A stretch of 52,861 bases of DNA, from IMG/VR virus record IMGVR_UViG_3300033149_002181, positions 1 through 52,861 of that record; one strand, 5' to 3'. Made by a program: the position numbers and the translations under genes. Below the pieces are notes generated by a model. It was not told where the DNA came from, searched no databases, and was given only the letters and a program-made list of their open reading frames with translations. Below, piece by piece: positions 976 through 36,962 of this stretch; positions within the stretch are counted from its first letter, which is position 1; every line of letters begins with the position of its first letter. This stretch comes from a virus. Its lineage: Duplodnaviria > Caudoviricetes.

Positions 976-3282
976 TTATTTTTTCAAGATCAATACACTT
1001 AACTCTCTGTCTCCTGAATATGCGTATAATCCAGCCACATCTATTTTAGCTCTGCCTTTAATAGTATGGGTTCCAGCCGATACATTTTCTTCAAAATGAA
1101 TAATAGTAATATGTGATCCTGTTAATGAAAATTGCTCTCCACCTGTAATTCTAACTCGTGCTTCTTTGTCTGTTATATCAGTTCCATCATAATTTAAACA
1201 CCATGATGCGCTTAAATTATTTGTAACAGCTTCTTCGATAACTACCCAAGCATTCACTTGCATAATAAACATGCAAGATGCTGCTTCCGATAATGTGAAT
1301 TGCTTGCTAAAATTAGTAATATCTGAATAAGAAGTACTATTTATACGTGTCCCTGTATTATCATTTTTTGTAAATATTTGACGGTTAGTAAGGGCTCCAT
1401 CGGCGATTTTTTCTGTTGTAGTTGCTCCATCTTCTATATCCTCTGTCTGAATCCTTCCCGCCACCGCGCTAACCTGACTCGTATACCCCGAATAATTTCC
1501 CGAAGTGTCGTAAGCCCGCGCTTTCACGTAATAGGTCGTGCCCGGTGTCAGGTCTACTAAATCAAATCTGGCTGCCCGCCCTTTAGCTTTAAGCGTACTA
1601 CTTGATGGCGTAAACCCGCTTGATGTGGAAACGTGGATCTCGAATCCATCCCAAGTTATCTCAGGATTTGCATTCAACGTAACCGTCAAACCACGAATAG
1701 CAGAAGTGACAGTTAAACCGGTAGGCGTAGAAATCGTCTCCGTCATCTGGACGTTTCTGGTATTCGGCCTCCCAGCCGCCCCCGGTCTGGTTTGCATTTT
1801 CAACCACCGGCGCTTACCGCCGATAATTCGACCACATCCTGTTATTTCTGTCCTATATTTATGGCTGTCGAAATCTAAGGAGTGCCGGAAGCTCTCTACT
1901 CCGTAAAAATCATTTGTCGACGATAATTGGGGATTTATTACCACTATCCCTTTAAATATGTCCATCTCCGGTAAAAACGGCATATTGATTTTAGTTGTGC
2001 TTGTCAGGTCTTTTAGATCACTTAGAGCGGCATTGGCTAAATCAGTAGCTTCAGCAGAGGTATCAATCATGGAAGCATCGTCTTCCTCTATTTGCATAGC
2101 CCTGCGCCCGTAAGCAGCTATGCTAGCCGAATCCGTTACCGTTACACTTGCCCGGTCACCGGTGGAAATATCTCGATAGGTGACCTTGATGGCATTCCGC
2201 ACGTCACGATCCGAAATGTCCAAATCCTGGACATAAAAATCGTCTTCATAATCGAGAACGAAATCAGCTCCAACTGCAACCATAGACCGGGGCGGTTCCA
2301 TGAGTGTCAATTTATATTGGCTCGTCCCGGAATCCCATCTATATCCGCAAAACCATCCGAACATGCTTGTAATTTTCTGAAGGGCATCCCATACCGACAT
2401 GTATCCAATTTTAGCCGCATCGGTGTTTAGTATGGCAAATCCGGGAGAAACAGGGGTATACAAAGTGACCGCTCCGGCTCCTAAATTGTCGTCCAGAATA
2501 GACTGCATTACAGTTTCTGCCGGCGTGCCCCCTTCGCTGCCATACTGTGTTTCCGTCTCAATATAACAATCTTGTAGACGTTTAGACAAATCCCGGCATT
2601 CGCACGAGACGGAAAAAGGGCTTGTTGCAATAGAATCCCCTAGATATCCATGAAACAATGTAATGTATCCAGTATCGGCTGCATAATGCCTATAATTCAT
2701 GAGGACTGTTATATTCTCCGGAGGTGGAGTCGTAAAAGTTACCGCGCCGGTCGTTGTGTTAACAGAAAAATCGCTGGTATATTCAGTTGTGCTTTTTAAG
2801 CTGTTCCATCTGATATTCGTCGCCTCGGCCCAGGTTATGTTATTTAGTTCAGACCAGGTGTACGAGGCTCCGGCTGAATCTATCTCTACCGAACCGGAAA
2901 CTATAGGAACATGCTCCAGATAAAAAACGGTAGTAGAACCATCTCCTACCCCAATTACTTCTTGATGAACATAGGATTCAGCGGTTACGCGCGCCTGAAA
3001 TTGTACTTCACGATTCGGCCACAATAAGGGTGCATAGCTGCCGGAAAATTGATTCCATGAACTGTTTCGATCACGAGGGGCGAATGAGTTGTTTTCATCA
3101 TTGTGCAGAGTAAACGACATCCGACGCACTACTCCGTCAACGCCTGAACCGGTTCCCACTCCCGACACATCGCCCTGTTCTATTTCAAGTCTGGAGAGAT
3201 ATTCGGTTACATCTTCCCAAGTCTCGCCGTCAGTGCGACCGATATATAGTTTTGTGTATATTTTTCTATCGGAAGGTATCAT
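976..3282 (-). CDS. Tail tip/baseplate hub protein with fibronectin type III domain
   Basis: 768 aa, downstream of the tape measure gene; FN3 signature (LTPGTTYYVKARAYDTSGNYS). Confidence 0.75.
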   Translation of the reverse strand: MIPSDRKIYTKLYIGRTDGETWEDVTEYLSRLEIEQGDVSGVGTGSGVDGVVRRMSFTLHNDENNSFAPRDRNSSWNQFSGSYAPLLWPNREVQFQARVTAESYVHQEVIGVGDGSTTVFYLEHVPIVSGSVEIDSAGASYTWSELNNITWAEATNIRWNSLKSTTEYTSDFSVNTTTGAVTFTTPPPENITVLMNYRHYAADTGYITLFHGYLGDSIATSPFSVSCECRDLSKRLQDCYIETETQYGSEGGTPAETVMQSILDDNLGAGAVTLYTPVSPGFAILNTDAAKIGYMSVWDALQKITSMFGWFCGYRWDSGTSQYKLTLMEPPRSMVAVGADFVLDYEDDFYVQDLDISDRDVRNAIKVTYRDISTGDRASVTVTDSASIAAYGRRAMQIEEDDASMIDTSAEATDLANAALSDLKDLTSTTKINMPFLPEMDIFKGIVVINPQLSSTNDFYGVESFRHSLDFDSHKYRTEITGCGRIIGGKRRWLKMQTRPGAAGRPNTRNVQMTETISTPTGLTVTSAIRGLTVTLNANPEITWDGFEIHVSTSSGFTPSSSTLKAKGRAARFDLVDLTPGTTYYVKARAYDTSGNYSGYTSQVSAVAGRIQTEDIEDGATTTEKIADGALTNRQIFTKNDNTGTRINSTSYSDITNFSKQFTLSEAASCMFIMQVNAWVVIEEAVTNNLSASWCLNYDGTDITDKEARVRITGGEQFSLTGSHITIIHFEENVSAGTHTIKGRAKIDVAGLYAYSGDRELSVLILKK

Positions 3283-31706: not shown

Positions 31707-32427
31707 TTAAGGAATTTCATTTTGAATCATCCTTTCAAAACTGAGGTTTTCCATCCGTTTCCATTTAACTTCCAATTCCGTCAGGCTAGTGTCTTTAAAT
31801 ACCGTCTTTCCAATTAGTTCTTCCATTTCTTTAGCTTTATAAAACCGTTCGGGATAATATCTCCATACTTTATACCAATCCCGTTTCCCGGCTTTGAAAC
31901 ATGGGATACAATTATTGTGTTTAAAATACTTGTATGGCTCCGGAAGTTTAATGCCCCATTCATTGGCAATAATACGTTTTATTTCTCTGCTTGTTATTCG
32001 CGTTTCAATTAGTGGATATTTGGCTGTTGATCCTAAAGCCTGTGCCCGTATGATTCGTCTGTATTCCTCAATATCATACCCCGACATATAACTGGTATTC
32101 TTCGTTTAATTGTTTATAAAATTTCGCGGCTGGTTTAAGTTTAAAATCTTCATTACAAAATGGAATTCGTGAACTAGGTAAACAATTATGTGCTTTAATA
32201 ACTTCCCATAATGTTCTGCCGTCTGAGACTTCGGTAATTGGTACATCTAAGAAATTAGATAGGTCATCAAGAAATGTATATGTGTCGGGATGTTGTCCCT
32301 CTGGAACATCATGGTAAAGAAGTATTACATCTTGCTTGCTATACTTTTTTATGACCAAATATGCCGCATATGCACTCCCGACACCACCGGAGAATTGAAC
32401 GATATGTTTCACTTCCTCACCTCCCAA
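31707..32427 (-). pseudogene. PAPS-reductase/adenine nucleotide alpha-hydrolase family gene split by a 1-nt frameshift
   Basis: FSGGVGS PP-loop and C...K.KP in the 5' ORF; YPL and HNNCIPCFKAG in the 3' ORF; removing one G at 32079-32082 restores YVGYDIEE. Confidence 0.75.
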
Positions 32428-32581
32428 GGGGCCGGAATCCCGGTTCTACGCAGTCATACCAAACACCGCGCCATTTTGTTCCGGAGTCATTTTTTTCTTC
32501 GGGCCGAAGTGTCATTTGTCCATGACCGGCTGGACACTCCGGAAGGTTCATCGGGAGATTCACACCGCCACCCCCAACATC

Positions 32582-32936
32582 TCAAGCCCTCTCTGCACCG
32601 TCTGCACCCGCCGAAGGTGTCTCCATGCTTTTTTCTTCGCTAGCTCCGGACTTTGTGCCGGGACCCGCATTGTAGAAGGCCAAGGCGGTCAGATAGTCGC
32701 CGTTTGCTTTGTCATAACAATATTTTAAAAATTGGATTCCTACCTCGAAAACCTGATCTAAGTTCCGGAAATCACCGGTTGGCCGAAGGATTTTAAACCG
32801 ACCATATGTAACCTGGATCGCCAACCTCTCACCAATCTATCTCAGCTTTGAGATCTGCTATTTTTTGAAATTGGCAGTAGCAGACGACACAGGCAACGAT
32901 CAGAGCAGTGAGGATAAGGGATTTTAAAACGTTCAT
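32582..32936 (-). pseudogene. Degraded lytic transglycosylase (SLT)-like gene
   Basis: Signal-like N-terminus from ATG 32936 stops early; another frame carries QV...GIQFL...GDYLTALAFYNAGPG. Confidence 0.5.
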
Positions 32937-34777
32937 GATCCGACCTCCTTTACTTCAAAGGTATCAAATATTAATTTGCTTCCGTCAAATCCATTCCGAC
33001 GGAGAGCTATATTAAGATATTCGCGGTTTAAATCAATATATATTGAGTTCCTACCTTCTTGTGCGGCTACCATTGTAACAGTCCCAGAGCCGCCGAAAGG
33101 GTCAAGAACTGTACAGGGGATTGGCTCTTCTCCGCAGTCGCAAGTCGAGTGCCAGCCGGTTGTTAGGTATTCAGCGCTTACAGATTTTTTATTTCCTTTT
33201 TGACTCATTCCTTTACCAAGGTCATCTGAATGGTCGTGATAACTTTTTCCAAGATATTTTTTATAACTTTCTGATGGCTCTTTCACTCGCTCCCACGGCG
33301 CCCCGCACCTCGGGCAACAACCTTTTTCCGACGTTCCCGCTTGGATGCAAGGCCTGACTAGATCAGGCGGGAACGTTGCGAAATGTGCTTCCGGGCAGGG
33401 ATAGGGAGGAATTTCCCAGACGGTTCTTTTATTGCGCTTGCCAATATAACTAATATTCCTTCGACCTCCTCTGTGTTGTGAAATTTGCCTGGGTGGTGGT
33501 GATTCTGATACATCACGGGCAAAAGAACAGGCTCTGTTTTCTGCTTGATTAATTGCCTCTTCTTTAATGGCTTCGTTGTCGTAATAATATTTTGTCGACT
33601 TCGTAAGCAGAAAAATATACTCATGTGCCTTTGTTGGCCTGTCTGTTATGCTTTCCGGCATAGGATTGGGCTTAAACCAGATGATTGTTGACCTACAGAT
33701 CCATCCATCTCCCATTAGTGCTCGTTTTACCAAGTCAGGTACACCAATTTCCTGTTTCTGCCTTAATGTATTTGACATTCGGTAGGCTTTATCGTATAAT
33801 TCTAAGTAATGTATAAAACTACCAAAACGATTGGAGATGAAAAGATGTCCTACACTTCTAAAAGCAATCTCAATAGCCCCCTGCATCAACGTGAGCGCGA
33901 AATGCTTCTTGCTGGCTTTAGTTACGCTGAAATCGCGCAAGCCCTCGGTGTTCGACAAAAGAGTGTCAGTGAGCGCAATCGGCTTGTCTATCGCATCAAC
34001 TTGCAAGACGCTTTTGCTAGACGAATTGAGCGCGACGGTATTCCTAACCGTTTGAATGTGAGTGATAGTTTCGGATATTGGTTTAGTGGGTTCGTTGACG
34101 GTGAAGGAAACTTTGAAATTTTTAGTCGCAGACGTCGAACAGGTAAATATGTTGAACGCCGGGCATGGTTGCAAATTATCATCCGCGACGATGACACGGA
34201 TACCATTCAATTCATTTACGATAATCTCAAGTGTGGCATTATCTACCATAACAAAGGACACGGCAGAACTAACCCAAATGTTACATTTCGTGTCGAGAAG
34301 ATTAAGGGCTTGGCAGAAATTATCGTCCCGCTTTTTGAAAAGTATCCGCTTCACACCAAGAAGGCATCGGAATTTATTATTTGGCGTAATGTTGTCAAAA
34401 CTCAATACATTCTCACTCTTGGAGGATATAGCCAACGTGTTGCAGCTACCGATGAACAAAATGCCGCCTTTAATCAAGCGTTGCAGGCAATTACAAAGAT
34501 TAGACATTATACCCCCACTAGAAAATGAATCCCCCAAATTCAGCCACAACGTCCCATCATCTCTGAGCACCCGCCAAACTTCCTGGAATACCCGAACCAA
34601 CTTTTTGATGTACTCCTCCGGCGTTTTCTCAAGCCCGATCTGTCCATCGACACCATAATCCCGAAGTCCCCAGTAAGGTGGGGAAGTTACAACAGTATGA
34701 ACAGATTTTTCAGGTATGATGCGGAGACAGTTTATTACATCGCCGAGGTAGAAGATATGGTTAGTCACAAAAATCAC
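32933..34777 (-). CDS. N4/N6 DNA methyltransferase (beta class) with an in-frame insertion of about 255 aa
   Basis: VTSPPYWGLRDY, WLNLGDS, IIWFKPNPMPES, HEYIFLL, HFATFP and VLDPFGGSGT motifs; insertion between GDSF and RQKQEIGVP. Confidence 0.9.
   Translation of the reverse strand: MIFVTNHIFYLGDVINCLRIIPEKSVHTVVTSPPYWGLRDYGVDGQIGLEKTPEEYIKKLVRVFQEVWRVLRDDGTLWLNLGDSFSSGGIMSNLCNCLQRLIKGGILFIGSCNTLAISSKSENVLSFDNITPNNKFRCLLGVKRILFKKRDDNFCQALNLLDTKCNIWVSSAVSFVMVDNATLEIIVNELNGIRVIVADDNLQPCPAFNIFTCSTSATKNFKVSFTVNEPTKPISETITHIQTVRNTVALNSSSKSVLQVDAIDKPIALTDTLLSNTEGLRDFSVTKASKKHFALTLMQGAIEIAFRSVGHLFISNRFGSFIHYLELYDKAYRMSNTLRQKQEIGVPDLVKRALMGDGWICRSTIIWFKPNPMPESITDRPTKAHEYIFLLTKSTKYYYDNEAIKEEAINQAENRACSFARDVSESPPPRQISQHRGGRRNISYIGKRNKRTVWEIPPYPCPEAHFATFPPDLVRPCIQAGTSEKGCCPRCGAPWERVKEPSESYKKYLGKSYHDHSDDLGKGMSQKGNKKSVSAEYLTTGWHSTCDCGEEPIPCTVLDPFGGSGTVTMVAAQEGRNSIYIDLNREYLNIALRRNGFDGSKLIFDTFEVKEVGS
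33772..33800 (+). promoter_or_regulatory. Consensus sigma70/sigmaA promoter for the antisense endonuclease
   Basis: TTGACA (33772-33777), 17-nt spacer, TATAAT (33795-33800). Confidence 0.85.
33845..34528 (+). CDS. LAGLIDADG homing endonuclease with N-terminal HTH, antisense within the methyltransferase
   Basis: YWFSGFVDGEGNF motif; LKCGII, IIVPLFEKYPLHTKKASEFIIW typical of single-motif LAGLIDADG; GGAG RBS before ATG 33845. Confidence 0.9.
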   Translation: MSYTSKSNLNSPLHQREREMLLAGFSYAEIAQALGVRQKSVSERNRLVYRINLQDAFARRIERDGIPNRLNVSDSFGYWFSGFVDGEGNFEIFSRRRRTGKYVERRAWLQIIIRDDDTDTIQFIYDNLKCGIIYHNKGHGRTNPNVTFRVEKIKGLAEIIVPLFEKYPLHTKKASEFIIWRNVVKTQYILTLGGYSQRVAATDEQNAAFNQALQAITKIRHYTPTRK

Positions 34778-34810
34778 TCTTTCGCCGAATTGCTCCGCGG
34801 TTGGTTGCGC

Positions 34811-36136
34811 TCATGATTCATTCCTCCTTGCAGCCAAGGCGAACCTTGACTTTGATTTGAAAAATTGAAAGTCTACTCTCCCCAGTGGCCCGAATCGATT
34901 CTTTGCGATGATAAGATTTACAAGCGACGGGTCAACCGGTTCCTTCGGCGGGTTGTAATAATCCTCACGATAGAGAAACATCACAGTTGAAGCATCCTGT
35001 TCCAGAGTTCCAGAATCCCGAAGGTCGGCCAGCTTCGGGATTTTGTTATTTCGATTTTCAACATCCCGGGATAATTGGGAGAGAGCCAGAATTGGGATAT
35101 TAAGTTCTTTTGCTAGCCCCTGAAGGATTCCGGAGGTTTCGGATACCTCTTTATTCCGGTCAGCATGTCTCTCGGGCGCCATAATCTGAATGTAGTCCAC
35201 TATCACAAGGCCGATCTGATGTAATGCGGTGAATCGCCGGAGCCTAACTGCCAAATCTGAAGCGCGGATCCGGTGGCTATCGTCAAGATATAAACTCGAT
35301 TCGGCAATCCGTCCGCAGGAGCGGGTGATATGTCGCCAATCCTGATCAGTTAGCTTTGTAGTATTTTGCAGAAGTTGAGAATCTAAACCGGCGTCTTCGG
35401 TGATCAGTTTCTCAACCAACTGATCGTTGGTCATTTCCAGTGATACGAAGATGGTCGGAATCCGCTCCTTCAGAGCTGTATATTTGGCAACATTTAGAGC
35501 TAGGGTAGTCTTTCCCATCGACGGCCGCGCGGCCAGGATATGTAAATTTCCCTTCCGTAGACCGCCGATTTTTCGGTCAAGATCACTATAACCGGTCGGG
35601 ATCCCGATGATTCCGTTTGTCTCTTTACGATCCTCCAAACTCCCGTAAACCTCAAAAACTTTTTGCCTAACGTGGATAATTTCTGACTTCGTCTTGTCGG
35701 CAATAAGTTTTGAATCCTGGATCATTCCTTGAGATATAACCTCAACCGGATCCTCATCGTCATAAAGTTTTTCTGCTGTCTCGAAACACTGGCGGATTTT
35801 TTGACGTGCAAGGCTTTTCTTTCTAACTATCTCTGCATAATGTTTGATGTGGGCTGCGGTCGGGACCACACTGGCCAGGTGTAGGATATAAGCATCGCCG
35901 CCTATTTTCTCCAGTTCGTTTTTGAGCTTTTCTTTGACTGTGATAAAATCGATTGGAGTTCTATCGTTTGACATTTTGACGATTGCGTCCCATATCAGCC
36001 GGCGCTTTTCGTCGTAGAAGTCGTAGGGGAAAATAATTTCTCTTGCTTCATTGACTACAGCCAGCCCGCCAATGAGACAGGATCCAATGACAGCTTCTTC
36101 AGCTTGATCGTTATGTGGTGGTACTTTTTCAATCAT
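34811..36136 (-). CDS. dnaB: Replicative DNA helicase
   Basis: PPHN..AEEAVIG, AARPSMGKT, SLEM, VDYIQ, LSQLSR, DLRDSGTLEQDA, IAKNRFG. Confidence 0.96.
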   Translation of the reverse strand: MIEKVPPHNDQAEEAVIGSCLIGGLAVVNEAREIIFPYDFYDEKRRLIWDAIVKMSNDRTPIDFITVKEKLKNELEKIGGDAYILHLASVVPTAAHIKHYAEIVRKKSLARQKIRQCFETAEKLYDDEDPVEVISQGMIQDSKLIADKTKSEIIHVRQKVFEVYGSLEDRKETNGIIGIPTGYSDLDRKIGGLRKGNLHILAARPSMGKTTLALNVAKYTALKERIPTIFVSLEMTNDQLVEKLITEDAGLDSQLLQNTTKLTDQDWRHITRSCGRIAESSLYLDDSHRIRASDLAVRLRRFTALHQIGLVIVDYIQIMAPERHADRNKEVSETSGILQGLAKELNIPILALSQLSRDVENRNNKIPKLADLRDSGTLEQDASTVMFLYREDYYNPPKEPVDPSLVNLIIAKNRFGPLGRVDFQFFKSKSRFALAARRNES

Positions 36137-36140
36137 TCAA

Positions 36141-36962
36141 TCACCCCATTTTTCCGTAGAATTCGAGGGTTGCGGCAGTGGGGTCTGGTTCATTTATTTG
36201 GTTGATATACTCCTCAAAAGGTTTATCTGGACCAAGGAATGTGGCAGCGTGTTTTATAAACCTCTCTTCAATCTTTTCTTTCTGACAATACGCTGCATAA
36301 TTTTTAGCTGCATTAATCAAGTCTTCGGACTTAAAATCTTCTTTTAGCCTTGTTTTCCAACATCTAAAAGCCCGTTTCTTTTCTTTTTTTCTGGGGTATA
36401 CCTTCCAAAACTCCTGAAACTTTTCGGTGTATTCGTCACTTTTTGAGTTGCTTTTTTCTTTTTGTTCATCACCATGCACACATATATTATTTCTTAGATC
36501 TATATCTAGATCTAATGCGTTACATTGCGTTACATCAGCGTTACCTGTAACGTTACATGTAACGTTACCATCAGGAAGTTTTTGACGTTCTCTGTACCTC
36601 TGAACCCTGAGCCTGGTTTGTTCGCGAATCCGTTCCATCCCCTCAATACTCTGGTGCTTTTCCCAATTAGTTATAAATATGGCTCCGGCAATACGTTCAA
36701 TCATTTTGAGTTTTTCAAAGGTAGCTAATGCCAACTTAACGGTATTTATAGGCCGGCGGAATTTATGAGCAAGCATTTCCTCTGTGTACGGAATATTTTC
36801 AGTTAGGAGAATATATCCACCGGCATTACACTTCCCGGCAAGGGTTAAAAGTTTTATCCAAATCACGAGGATTGTATCGCCGTCAGGAAGGCTTTCGATG
36901 TAGTCGATTTTTTCGTCATCAAACATAGAGGTGGTAATTTTTATCCATTTAATTTCCGACAT
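36141..36962 (-). CDS. Phage replisome organizer/replication initiator
   Basis: WIKITTSMFDDEKI N-terminal domain; C-terminal FQEFWKVYPRK...FIKHAATFL. Confidence 0.9.
   Translation of the reverse strand: MSEIKWIKITTSMFDDEKIDYIESLPDGDTILVIWIKLLTLAGKCNAGGYILLTENIPYTEEMLAHKFRRPINTVKLALATFEKLKMIERIAGAIFITNWEKHQSIEGMERIREQTRLRVQRYRERQKLPDGNVTCNVTGNADVTQCNALDLDIDLRNNICVHGDEQKEKSNSKSDEYTEKFQEFWKVYPRKKEKKRAFRCWKTRLKEDFKSEDLINAAKNYAAYCQKEKIEERFIKHAATFLGPDKPFEEYINQINEPDPTAATLEFYGKMG
36497..36570. repeat. Iteron-like repeats (gcgttaca/gtaacgttac), probable replication origin
   Basis: Several direct and palindromic GTTAC units plus tagatcta palindromes inside the initiator gene, next to an A/T tract. 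Confidence 0.7.

What the first reader, a model, noticed from the sequence alone, without database searches (positions are those of the whole stretch)
33760..34530. Homing endonuclease hidden antisense inside an unbroken methyltransferase frame, with no intron or intein
Seen: the MTase ORF stays open for 614 codons, about 255 of which are the exact codon-aligned reverse complement of a LAGLIDADG gene and its promoter. The insertion lies in the variable region between WLNLGDS and the K..IG.P motif. The endonuclease therefore uses no TTA, CTA or TCA codon across about 16 Leu and 13 Ser, although TTA is common elsewhere in this genome. Its stop codon lies within the MTase GDSF codons. Promoter plus ORF fill the whole insertion, leaving no room for a group I/II ribozyme core, and the inserted peptide has no intein C-terminal HN-C/S/T or Hint motifs. 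Inference: a distinct way for a homing endonuclease to be tolerated, by keeping the antisense frame stop-free so the host enzyme carries it as a loop. I do not know of a described class like this.
Basis: partly seen in the sequence, partly recalled or inferred. Interest (0 to 1): 0.93.

Follow-up and report, generated by a model that had tools for sequence, protein, structure and literature searches.

The report
Backward homing endonuclease inside intact methylase
A selfish DNA-cutting enzyme gene sits backwards inside a phage DNA methylase gene and avoids every codon that would put a stop in the methylase frame, so the methylase can apparently still be made in one piece without an intron or intein.

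Summary
The window is a complete 52.9-kb phage record. Its 614-codon beta-class N6/N4 DNA methyltransferase ORF (32933..34777, -) contains a LAGLIDADG homing endonuclease (HEG) gene in exact codon register on the other strand (33845..34528, +), with a 12/12 sigma-70 promoter and a GGAG ribosome site. The HEG uses no TTA, CTA or TCA (P=2e-4 from the phage's own codon usage).

Comparison makes the case. All 13 diverged HEG lineages (39-70% identical) lying antisense in such methylase genes have zero antisense stops, at two insertion sites. Of 73 non-embedded relatives, 6 have zero; the group averages about 4 such codons per 100.

The HEG frame is the conserved one. The antisense peptide drifts as a neutral model predicts. 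Methylase motifs are kept. Near-identical cassettes sit in different methylase backgrounds. No intron or intein signature was found. Both sites fall in regions that AlphaFold2 models as disordered.

Best reading: an intron-less, intein-less HEG carried as a translated loop. Translation, methylase activity and cleavage are not shown.

It is not unprecedented. A same-strand, out-of-frame HNH in a phage methylase (ShiLan domain, 2025) and antisense LAGLIDADG genes inside inteins are described. I file this as a new variant of a known kind.

The parts
32933..34777 (-). Whole uninterrupted ORF of the beta-class N6/N4 DNA methyltransferase (614 codons including the insert).
   Evidence: PF01555, 2e-38; the AlphaFold2 model matches M.RsrI 1nw6 (TM-score normalised to the target 0.70). 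Motif IV (SPPY) and motif I (DPFGGSGT) are intact.
34529..34777 (-). Methylase N-terminal part, up to the GDS motif. It is 91% identical to the insert-free allele P0002.
33758..34528 (.). Inserted cassette of about 770 bp (promoter, leader and HEG ORF). It replaces the native variable loop of the methylase and is read as residues 84/85 to about 340 of the methylase.
   Evidence: the same interval is 10-202 nt in 80 of 80 insert-free viral loci..
33845..34528 (+). HEG ORF from the conserved ATG. It has an N-terminal helix-turn-helix region and a single LAGLIDADG core with the DGEG acidic residue. The stop TGA (34526-34528) overlaps the Ser codon of GDS.
   Evidence: D-G-E invariant in all 15 aligned sequences. 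(I-OnuI family, E=8e-23)..
33772..33800 (+). Sigma-70-type promoter of the HEG, TTGACA-17-TATAAT. It is read in the methylase frame as ...ELYDKA.RMSN.
   Evidence: 12 of 12 matches; 9 of the 13 lineages examined carry a TTGnnn-17-TAnnnT match at the same 73-nt distance from the ATG.
33833..33836 (+). GGAG ribosome-binding site, 8 nt before the HEG ATG.
33662..33757 (-). Variant methylase segment that travels with the HEG (KQEIGVPDLVKRALMGDGWICRSTIIW...). It is either a co-conversion tract or a cleavage-immune target.
   Evidence: 53% identical to P0002 but 75-88% identical to other HEG-bearing alleles; present in 34 of 36 HEG-bearing rows and 0 of 62 HEG-free rows.
32933..33661 (-). Rest of the methylase C-terminal part (motif VIII, target-recognition region, motif I).
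   Evidence: (76% identical to P0002).

Best explanation
This is a mobile LAGLIDADG homing endonuclease cassette with no intron and no intein. It carries its own sigma-70-type promoter, a Shine-Dalgarno site and an ORF made of a helix-turn-helix region plus a single LAGLIDADG domain. It lies in reverse orientation inside a phage beta-class N6/N4 DNA methyltransferase gene, in a naturally length-variable and probably disordered loop between the GDS motif and the K.KDL.GIP helix.

The cassette sits in exact codon register with the host gene. In that register the only sense codons that create antisense stops are TTA, CTA and TCA. All three have synonyms, and the HEG uses none of them.

Inferred steps: the methylase mRNA is translated straight through the cassette, giving a 614-aa enzyme with an insertion of about 255 aa whose sequence is essentially unconstrained. 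The methylase core folds around this insertion. The endonuclease is made from its own antisense transcript, so it needs no frameshift or internal initiation on the host mRNA. It spreads by cutting insert-free methylase alleles and being copied in during repair, together with about 30 codons of flanking methylase sequence.

Shown here: the architecture; stop avoidance specific to embedded copies; purifying selection on the HEG frame but not on the antisense peptide; retention of methylase motifs; mosaic alleles; absence of intron and intein signatures.

Inferred only: translation through the insert, methylase activity, endonuclease activity and the position of the target.
For: (1) Stop avoidance. 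All 13 distinct embedded lineages have 0 stops in the aligned antisense frame over about 220 codons, against 5-27 stops in the other two antisense frames, and the N- and C-terminal methylase parts share one frame. The lineages are the window, L002, L003, L006, L007, L008/L009, L010, L011, L013, L014, L016, L085 and L172. Their HEGs are 39-70% identical in amino acids. L010 and L011 show only one methylase flank because the contig ends. One search found 0 of 187 Leu codons as TTA/CTA and 0 of 201 Ser codons as TCA. The product of the per-locus P(zero) values is 10^-37.2. That set holds 12 of the embedded lineages plus L012 and assumes independence.

(2) Independence is reasonable. At identical residues, same-codon use is 0.41 against 0.37 expected at random over 78 pairs, so synonymous sites are near saturation.

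(3) Controls; 68 distinct non-embedded LAGLIDADG hits carry 335 such codons in 7,944 (4.2%); 6 of 73 hits have none. The full-length relatives L015 (co-oriented, free-standing) and L018 have 7 and 8.

(4) Which frame is selected. Mean HEG-frame identity is 0.51. Antisense-frame identity is 0.29, against 0.26 in a neutral codon-redraw simulation.

(5) The methylase is kept. Motif IV is present in 33 of 36 HEG-bearing rows and motif I in 35 of 36. The invariant columns of the alignment run across all 99 rows.

(6) Mobility. P0006 and P0007 are 98% identical in the insert but 60% and 48% in the flanks. The window is 91% and 76% identical to insert-free P0002 in the flanks but 53% in the variant segment. 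80 of 80 related viral methylase loci lack the insert.

(7) No splicing signature. The Rfam E-value scan found no intron family. No Hint or intein Pfam family was found in 99 of 99 rows. The junction on the N-terminal side differs between alleles.

(8) Structure. In the model of the 614-aa protein the core has pLDDT above 90 and residues 112-279 are below 50. In insert-free P0002 the low-confidence stretches 87-125 and 194-247 coincide with insertion site 1 and with site 2, the one used by L016 and P0122.
Against: There is no RNA, protein or methylation evidence: no sequencing run was available.

The codon-periodicity test for methylase-frame selection in the HEG leader was in the expected direction but not significant (p=0.14).

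Two relatives that lie between genes rather than inside one (L012, L173) are also stop-free on the antisense strand. Keeping the methylase whole therefore cannot be the only selective reason.

AlphaFold2 gives the two ends of the insert pLDDT 80-90, which a purely junk peptide does not explain.

No pseudo-palindromic target was found.

A strong convergent promoter inside the gene could itself depress methylase expression.

The database proteins are biased towards open frames, because only those are called as long proteins. The unbiased sample is the set of DNA loci found with the HEG as query.
Confidence: 0.72

Rival explanations
1. The frame is kept open mainly so that ribosomes keep travelling along the long one-directional phage transcript. 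This would avoid Rho-type polarity and preserve translational coupling to downstream genes. The methylase itself would be dispensable or crippled by the insert.
For: The HEG is the only real + strand gene inside a run of more than 40 kb of - strand genes: 27 of 31 long non-overlapping ORFs are on the - strand. In L012 the antisense ORF begins 5 nt after the stop of the upstream gene and its stop overlaps the start of the downstream gene. L173 is an AT-rich contig with all genes on one strand; its HEG lies between genes and has a stop-free antisense ORF of 185 codons (P=2e-5).
Against: Methylase catalytic motifs are retained in HEG-bearing alleles (33 of 36 and 35 of 36), and the parts on either side of the insert are always in one frame. 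Free-standing relatives flanked by opposite-strand ORFs are mostly not stop-free. Of 19 hits with at least one such flank and no same-strand flank, only L012 and L173 have zero; for example L030 has 5 in 108 codons (the flank calls are crude). This rival and the best explanation are not exclusive.
Confidence: 0.13
2. The insert is removed by a splicing process that current models do not recognise. This could be a cryptic ribozyme overlapping the HEG or an unconventional protein-splicing or proteolytic step. The mature methylase would then lack the insert.
For: The ends of the insert are modelled with pLDDT 80-90 and could form a structured stalk. The leader length is fixed at 73 nt in 9 lineages. 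The authors of PMC11855218 also leave splicing open for their element (section 4.4).
Against: No Rfam family matched at E up to 10 apart from two short chance-level hits. No Hint or intein family matched in 99 rows. RNA splicing would remove any need for a stop-free, in-register frame, yet that frame is kept in 13 of 13 lineages. The junction on the N-terminal side varies between alleles, with the native loop either kept or lost. The antisense peptide evolves as expected with no constraint, which does not fit a catalytic splicing domain.
Confidence: 0.08
3. The open frame is a by-product of composition or chance, or the methylase is a dead, disrupted gene.
For: The codon-aligned antisense frame is the antisense frame most often open in any gene. 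GC-rich control hits also have zero such codons (L001, L021, L032, L174).
Against: P=2.2e-4 in this phage alone, and 10^-37 over the lineages. The loci are not GC-rich (GC 0.36-0.58). Synonymous sites are saturated. Non-embedded relatives of the same subfamily carry 7-8 such codons. The methylase parts are intact and in frame in every case.
Confidence: 0.02

Closest known systems
ShiLan domain: hidden out-of-frame HNH endonuclease in the mycobacteriophage methylase ShiLan gp65, and the Pacc40 gp60 insertion (Arsenault, Gosselin & Gogarten 2025, PMC11855218; precursor PMC9957025 seen only in a search listing)
   Same: A homing endonuclease ORF sits inside an unbroken phage DNA methylase ORF. 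There are no stops in the methylase frame. No intron or intein is detectable. The insert is predicted to be a poorly structured loop. Its distribution among related methylases is patchy, which suggests active homing.
   Different: There the endonuclease is of the HNH type, on the same strand in the +3 frame, with no detectable ribosome site, and the authors invoke leaderless translation. Here it is a LAGLIDADG enzyme on the opposite strand in codon register, with its own consensus promoter and GGAG site, so how it is expressed is no puzzle. That paper contains none of the words antisense, opposite, reverse, complement or promoter. Here the pattern rests on 13 diverged environmental lineages and two insertion sites. 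There it rests on actinophage clusters.
Non-canonical inteins with an antisense LAGLIDADG endonuclease (bioRxiv 10.1101/2025.01.02.630785, section 8, citing Gorbalenya 1998 and Gogarten et al. 2002; I did not read the cited papers)
   Same: A LAGLIDADG gene lies on the antisense strand of an insertion that stays open in the host reading frame.
   Different: Those insertions keep an intein splicing domain that removes the antisense peptide from the host protein. Here no Hint or intein family is found, and promoter plus ORF fill the whole insert, so the peptide must stay in the protein or be removed in some unknown way. The supplementary figures of that preprint could not be seen.
Free-standing homing endonucleases of T4-like phages: intronless homing, and genes split by mobE or mobA (review PMC2988022, passages read)
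   Same: The endonuclease has its own promoter. There is no intron or intein. Flanking host sequence is co-converted with the endonuclease gene. The review notes that an invading endonuclease must fit into the host's transcription programme.
   Different: Those elements lie between genes or split the host gene into two polypeptides. Here the host ORF is kept as one polypeptide by dual coding on the two strands.
Rickettsia palindromic elements inserted in frame in protein-coding genes (recalled; the term appears in PMC1779305, seen only in a search listing)
   Same: Selfish DNA is tolerated inside a coding gene because it is translated as an extra surface peptide.
   Different: Those elements are short, non-autonomous repeats that encode no enzyme. 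Here the insert encodes a full endonuclease on the other strand.

Membership tests
LAGLIDADG homing endonuclease (PF00961) | LAGLIDADG helix motif ending in a catalytic acidic residue | tested here: met
   (1e-18). D-G-E-G is invariant in 15 of 15 aligned relatives; the profile matches I-OnuI-family structures (8e-23) over residues 84-211.
LAGLIDADG homing endonuclease (PF00961) | Site-specific DNA cleavage of the insert-free allele | not testable with these tools
   No assay was possible. The search for a pseudo-palindromic target was inconclusive.
LAGLIDADG homing endonuclease (PF00961) | Mobility: presence/absence polymorphism and mosaic host alleles | tested here: met
   (insert 98% identical against flanks 60% and 48%). 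(80 of 80 related loci are insert-free).
Beta-class N6/N4 DNA methyltransferase (PF01555) | Motif IV (S/D)PPY placed before motif I FxGxG, on a Rossmann-like fold | tested here: met
   fold matches to M.RsrI, N4CMT, TTHA0409, CcrM and M.PvuII.
Beta-class N6/N4 DNA methyltransferase (PF01555) | Methyl transfer to DNA by the insert-bearing protein | not testable with these tools
   Only motif retention could be checked.
Intein | Hint splicing blocks, a Cys/Ser/Thr residue at the junctions and a penultimate His-Asn | tested here: not met
   No Hint or intein Pfam family in the window protein or in any of 99 rows. HEG plus promoter fill the insert. The junctions vary between alleles. By contrast, P0091 of the same family carries a canonical C...HN/S intein.
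Group I / group II intron | Ribozyme core recognisable by covariance model | tested here: not met
   Rfam E-value scan of 32500-35200 on both strands returned only two short chance-level hits (ssnA 0.075, ToxI 5). The in-register open frame would also be unnecessary for an intron.
ShiLan-type hidden endonuclease insertion | Endonuclease ORF in another frame inside a methylase ORF that has no stops, with no intron or intein | tested here: met
ShiLan-type hidden endonuclease insertion | HNH endonuclease on the same strand in the +3 frame | tested here: not met
   Here it is a LAGLIDADG enzyme on the opposite strand in codon register.
Intein with antisense LAGLIDADG endonuclease | Antisense LAGLIDADG ORF within a host-frame-open insertion | tested here: met
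Intein with antisense LAGLIDADG endonuclease | Flanking protein-splicing domain | tested here: not met

The most novel reading that the evidence does not exclude
Besides introns and inteins, homing endonucleases have a third general way to live inside protein-coding genes, which could be called antisense dual coding. The endonuclease gene lies backwards in codon register in a disordered loop of the host protein. It purges the three codons that would stop the host frame. It is expressed from its own promoter, and it is carried permanently as a junk peptide in a working host enzyme. This would be widespread in methylases of environmental phages, at two or more insertion sites. In related elements, the same stop-free antisense trick would serve as a bridging ORF between genes.
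Probability: 0.55. Interest if true: 0.75.

Novelty: new variant of a known kind. Interest (0 to 1): 0.62.

Why it matters
Introns and inteins are the textbook ways for a homing endonuclease to sit in an essential or useful gene without destroying it. The ShiLan report of 2025 proposed that neither is needed, but it rested on a few actinophages and left open how the hidden enzyme is expressed.

The element here, together with 12 diverged relatives, supplies two things that case lacked. The first is a clean natural control: embedded copies have zero antisense stops, and most non-embedded copies have many. The second is an arrangement in which expression of the endonuclease is unproblematic, because it has its own promoter and ribosome site on the other strand.

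The element is also a natural example of long sense/antisense dual coding, about 230 codons, in which one frame is selected for its sequence and the other only for being open.

Practical consequences follow:
- Gene callers will report the long methylase frame and miss the endonuclease, or the reverse.
- The two methylase loops are mapped as sites that tolerate insertions of about 250 aa.
- The endonucleases are candidates for new LAGLIDADG specificities aimed at conserved methylase codons.

Tried and rejected
Group I/II intron: the Rfam E-value scan found nothing relevant. Rejected.

Intein: no Hint or intein Pfam family. Rejected.

Chance open frame: rejected.

Polarity avoidance as a general rule for antisense free-standing relatives: not supported. 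Of 19 hits with at least one opposite-strand flank and no same-strand flank, only L012 and L173 are stop-free (the flank calls are crude, using stop-to-stop ORFs of 90 aa or more within 400 nt). Kept as a partial rival.

Target-site search: a scan for 22-bp pseudo-palindromes over 52 distinct insert-free alleles gave at best 4.87 of 11 matched pairs. Inconclusive.

Codon periodicity of the HEG leader in the methylase frame: p=0.14 with 9 sequences. Inconclusive.

Counting fused proteins: restricting the word-based search to the insert found only 4 proteins. A profile of 13 antisense peptides with lengths 'longer' found only 3. Both are limited by the exact-word prefilter and are not prevalence estimates.

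Phage GenBank records: no close DNA relative (24 records, each covering 10% of the query or less). The only protein match to the HEG was the sense-strand LAGLIDADG in the Mycobacterium phage Kersh methylase.

Expression: no RNA holder was listed and no run of any kind was listed.

Complex prediction was not used, because a single-motif LAGLIDADG homodimer is a textbook pair.

The supplementary files of the two Gogarten-lab papers could not be seen. They may list further antisense or out-of-frame cases.

None returned a paper describing an antisense LAGLIDADG gene without an intein inside a methylase ORF. The library holds only open-access papers and preprints.
Full report
**What is there**

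The window is a whole virus record of 52,861 bp that CheckV rates as complete. Nearly all its genes are on the - strand: 27 of 31 long non-overlapping ORFs.

The region of interest lies in the replication module. Upstream are a replisome organiser/DnaD-like gene and a DnaB-like helicase. Downstream is a PAPS-reductase-like gene.

ORF 32933..34777 (-) has 614 codons and is a PF01555 N6/N4 DNA methyltransferase. It has motif IV (SPPY) near the N-terminus and motif I (DPFGGSGT) near the C-terminus, which is the beta-class order. An AlphaFold2 model matches M.RsrI, a rotifer N4-cytosine methyltransferase, TTHA0409, CcrM and M.PvuII.

On the + strand, 33809..34528 encodes a PF00961 LAGLIDADG protein. 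Its N-terminal region matches a helix-turn-helix family weakly. Alignment with relatives places the real start at ATG 33845, preceded by GGAG at 33833-33836.

The only 12-of-12 sigma-70 promoter match in 32400-36300 is TTGACA-17-TATAAT at 33772-33800 on the + strand.

The two ORFs are in exact codon register. The HEG stop TGA (34526-34528) is the reverse complement of the Ser codon of the methylase GDS motif.

**Is the open frame more than chance?**

In the codon-aligned antisense frame, only the sense codons TTA, CTA and TCA create stops. The phage uses them for 31% of Leu and 17% of Ser. TTA alone accounts for 21% of Leu. The HEG has 16 Leu and 13 Ser and uses none of the three codons, giving P=2.2e-4.

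The comparative evidence is much stronger. I searched public viral, metagenome and genome contigs with the HEG protein as query. That query does not depend on what the other strand looks like.

Every relative that lies antisense between methylase N- and C-terminal matches has zero stops in the aligned antisense frame over about 220 codons. The other two antisense frames have 5-27 stops. The two methylase parts are always in one frame.

- These are 13 distinct lineages: the window, L002, L003, L006, L007, L008/L009, L010, L011, L013, L014, L016, L085 and L172.
- Their HEGs are 39-70% identical to each other.
- L010 and L011 show only one methylase flank because the contig ends.
- Across the 13 lineages (12 of these plus L012), 0 of 187 Leu and 0 of 201 Ser codons are of the forbidden kind.
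- The product of the per-locus probabilities is 10^-37, if the lineages are independent.

Independence is a fair assumption. At residues that are identical between two HEGs, the same codon is used 41% of the time, against 37% expected at random. Synonymous sites are therefore close to saturation, and the avoidance must have been maintained, not merely inherited.

**Natural controls**

- 68 distinct LAGLIDADG hits outside methylase genes carry 335 such codons in 7,944 (4.2%).
- 6 of 73 hits have none, and four of those six are GC-rich.
- Two full-length members of the same subfamily that are free-standing, L015 and L018, have 7 and 8.

**Which strand is selected for what**

Mean pairwise identity is 0.51 in the HEG frame and 0.29 in the antisense frame. 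A simulation that keeps the HEG proteins and redraws synonymous codons gives 0.26 for the antisense frame. 18 of 78 pairs exceed the simulation, mostly the closer pairs.

The HEG is therefore the conserved coding sequence. The antisense peptide is constrained in little beyond having no stops. The catalytic DGEG is invariant in 15 of 15 relatives.

The methylase parts are also conserved in alleles that carry the HEG. Motif IV is present in 33 of 36 rows and motif I in 35 of 36. P0001, one of the three rows that lack motif IV, begins in mid-protein; P0021 and P0023 were not examined.

**Where it is inserted**

In 80 of 80 related viral methylase loci without the HEG, the interval between GDS and K.KDL.GIP is 10-202 nt. 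It is a naturally variable loop. Other unrelated insertions of about 200 aa occur there too (P0103, P0118).

In the AlphaFold2 model of the closest insert-free allele, P0002, this loop (residues 87-125) and a second variable stretch (194-247) have pLDDT below 50.

The second stretch is where L016 and the database cluster P0122 (25 member sequences) carry a 46%-identical HEG. That HEG is again antisense, and the methylase ORF is open for 700 codons.

In the model of the window protein the core has pLDDT above 90 and residues 112-279 of the insert are below 50. The insert ends (86-111 and 280-340) score 80-90, which I cannot explain.

**Mobility**

The window methylase is 91% identical to P0002 in the N-terminal part and 76% in the C-terminal part. 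It is only 53% identical in the 32 codons next to the HEG promoter. In those codons it is 75-88% identical to other HEG-bearing alleles, which otherwise share 40-65% with it.

This variant segment is present in 34 of 36 HEG-bearing rows and 0 of 62 HEG-free rows.

P0006 and P0007 have inserts that are 98% identical inside flanks that are 60% and 48% identical. L008 and L009 have 99% identical HEGs inside different methylases.

This is the pattern expected from homing with co-conversion, or from a cassette that carries its own cleavage-immune copy of the target. I could not locate the target.

**Not an intron, not an intein**

The Rfam scan found no intron family. No Hint or intein Pfam family appears in any of 99 aligned methylases. 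Promoter, leader and ORF fill the insert. The junction on the N-terminal side varies:
- In the window, L011, L013, L014 and L085 the HEG stop abuts the GDS codons.
- In L002, L003, L008 and L009 part of the native loop remains.
- In L006 and L007 the HEG ORF runs on into the methylase N-terminal coding region.

An RNA-spliced element would not need an in-register open frame. The same methylase family does host a canonical intein at a nearby site (P0091), so the contrast is real.

**Complications**

L012 and L173 are LAGLIDADG genes lying antisense between genes, not inside one. They too have stop-free aligned antisense ORFs (P about 4e-4 and 2e-5).

In L012 the antisense ORF starts 5 nt after the upstream stop and ends overlapping the downstream start. 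This suggests that uninterrupted translation of the host-strand transcript may itself be selected.

Other free-standing relatives flanked by opposite-strand ORFs are not stop-free. I therefore keep this as a partial rival, not a general rule.

The periodicity test in the HEG leader was not significant. No expression data could be obtained.

**What is known**

PMC11855218 (abstract and sections 1, 3.6 and 4 read) describes the ShiLan domain. It is an HNH endonuclease hidden in the +3 frame of the same strand inside an unbroken mycobacteriophage methylase ORF. It has no intron or intein, a predicted loop and a patchy distribution. How it is translated remains an open question there.

The same paper mentions a lone in-frame LAGLIDADG in those methylases. 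That fits what I saw in phage Kersh gp68 and in L004. The paper does not contain the words antisense, opposite, reverse, complement or promoter.

The preprint 10.1101/2025.01.02.630785 (section 8 read) lists antisense LAGLIDADG endonucleases inside inteins and cites reports from 1998 and 2002 that I did not read.

The present element combines the two: antisense LAGLIDADG, but no intein. It adds its own promoter, a second insertion site, a travelling variant segment and a broad environmental distribution.

Seven literature searches found no description of this combination. The library is limited to open papers and preprints, and supplements were closed.

**Verdict**

The loop-carriage mechanism is well supported by comparison but untested at the bench (confidence 0.72). 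The claim of a wholly undescribed class is not upheld. I rate it a new variant of a known kind, with interest 0.62.

Noticed in passing
L004 2830..4827 (+) (same contig as L028 and L175); L001 2333..4309 (+) = Mycobacterium phage Kersh gp68: These methylase ORFs carry a LAGLIDADG domain in the sense frame. In L004 it sits about 20 residues after the DPPY motif, with no obvious Hint blocks. This looks like the 'lone LAGLIDADG' mentioned in PMC11855218.
   Followed up: partly
L012 439..1224 (-) and L173 2450..3007 (-): These LAGLIDADG genes lie antisense between genes, yet their codon-aligned antisense frames are complete ORFs with no stops (P about 4e-4 and 2e-5). In L012 the ORF starts 5 nt after the upstream stop and ends overlapping the downstream start.
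   Followed up: partly
L006 about 1744..1794; L007 about 2320..2358: The HEG ORF has lost its usual stop and runs on for 12-16 codons into the conserved methylase N-terminal coding region (the ...DGT.W... codons). That gives a true overlap of two conserved coding sequences on opposite strands.
   Followed up: no
P0091 (724 aa): A member of the same methylase family carries a canonical LAGLIDADG intein (C...HN/S) between the DIIW and KPNPMPES motifs, close to the variant segment.
   Followed up: no
P0103 and P0118: Other insertions of about 200 aa, Cys- and Ser/Gly-rich, occupy the same GDS-to-KPKDL loop. They show no likeness to the HEG antisense peptide. No DNA was available to test whether another gene is hidden in another frame.
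   Followed up: no
P0073 (381 aa): An insert-free methylase with no loop residues but a variant-type segment (..ALMEDGWICRSTIIW..). It may be the ancestral lineage of the travelling segment or the product of a precise loss of the HEG.
   Followed up: no
window 31707..32087 (-) and 32074..32427 (-): A PAPS-reductase-like gene (phrog_424) is split into two ORFs that overlap by 14 nt and match consecutive profile positions (160-278 and 277-378). That suggests a frameshift or a sequencing error.
   Followed up: no
window 32400..32850: This stretch is GC-rich (up to 0.56, against about 0.42 elsewhere). It lies between the methylase and the PAPS-reductase-like gene and holds an 80-aa ORF (32582..32824, -) with no PHROG match.
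   Followed up: no
window 34445..34522 and 33758..33939 (methylase residues 86-111 and 280-340): AlphaFold2 gives the two ends of the antisense-encoded insert pLDDT 80-90, while the middle is below 50. Yet the peptide evolves as if unconstrained.
   Followed up: partly
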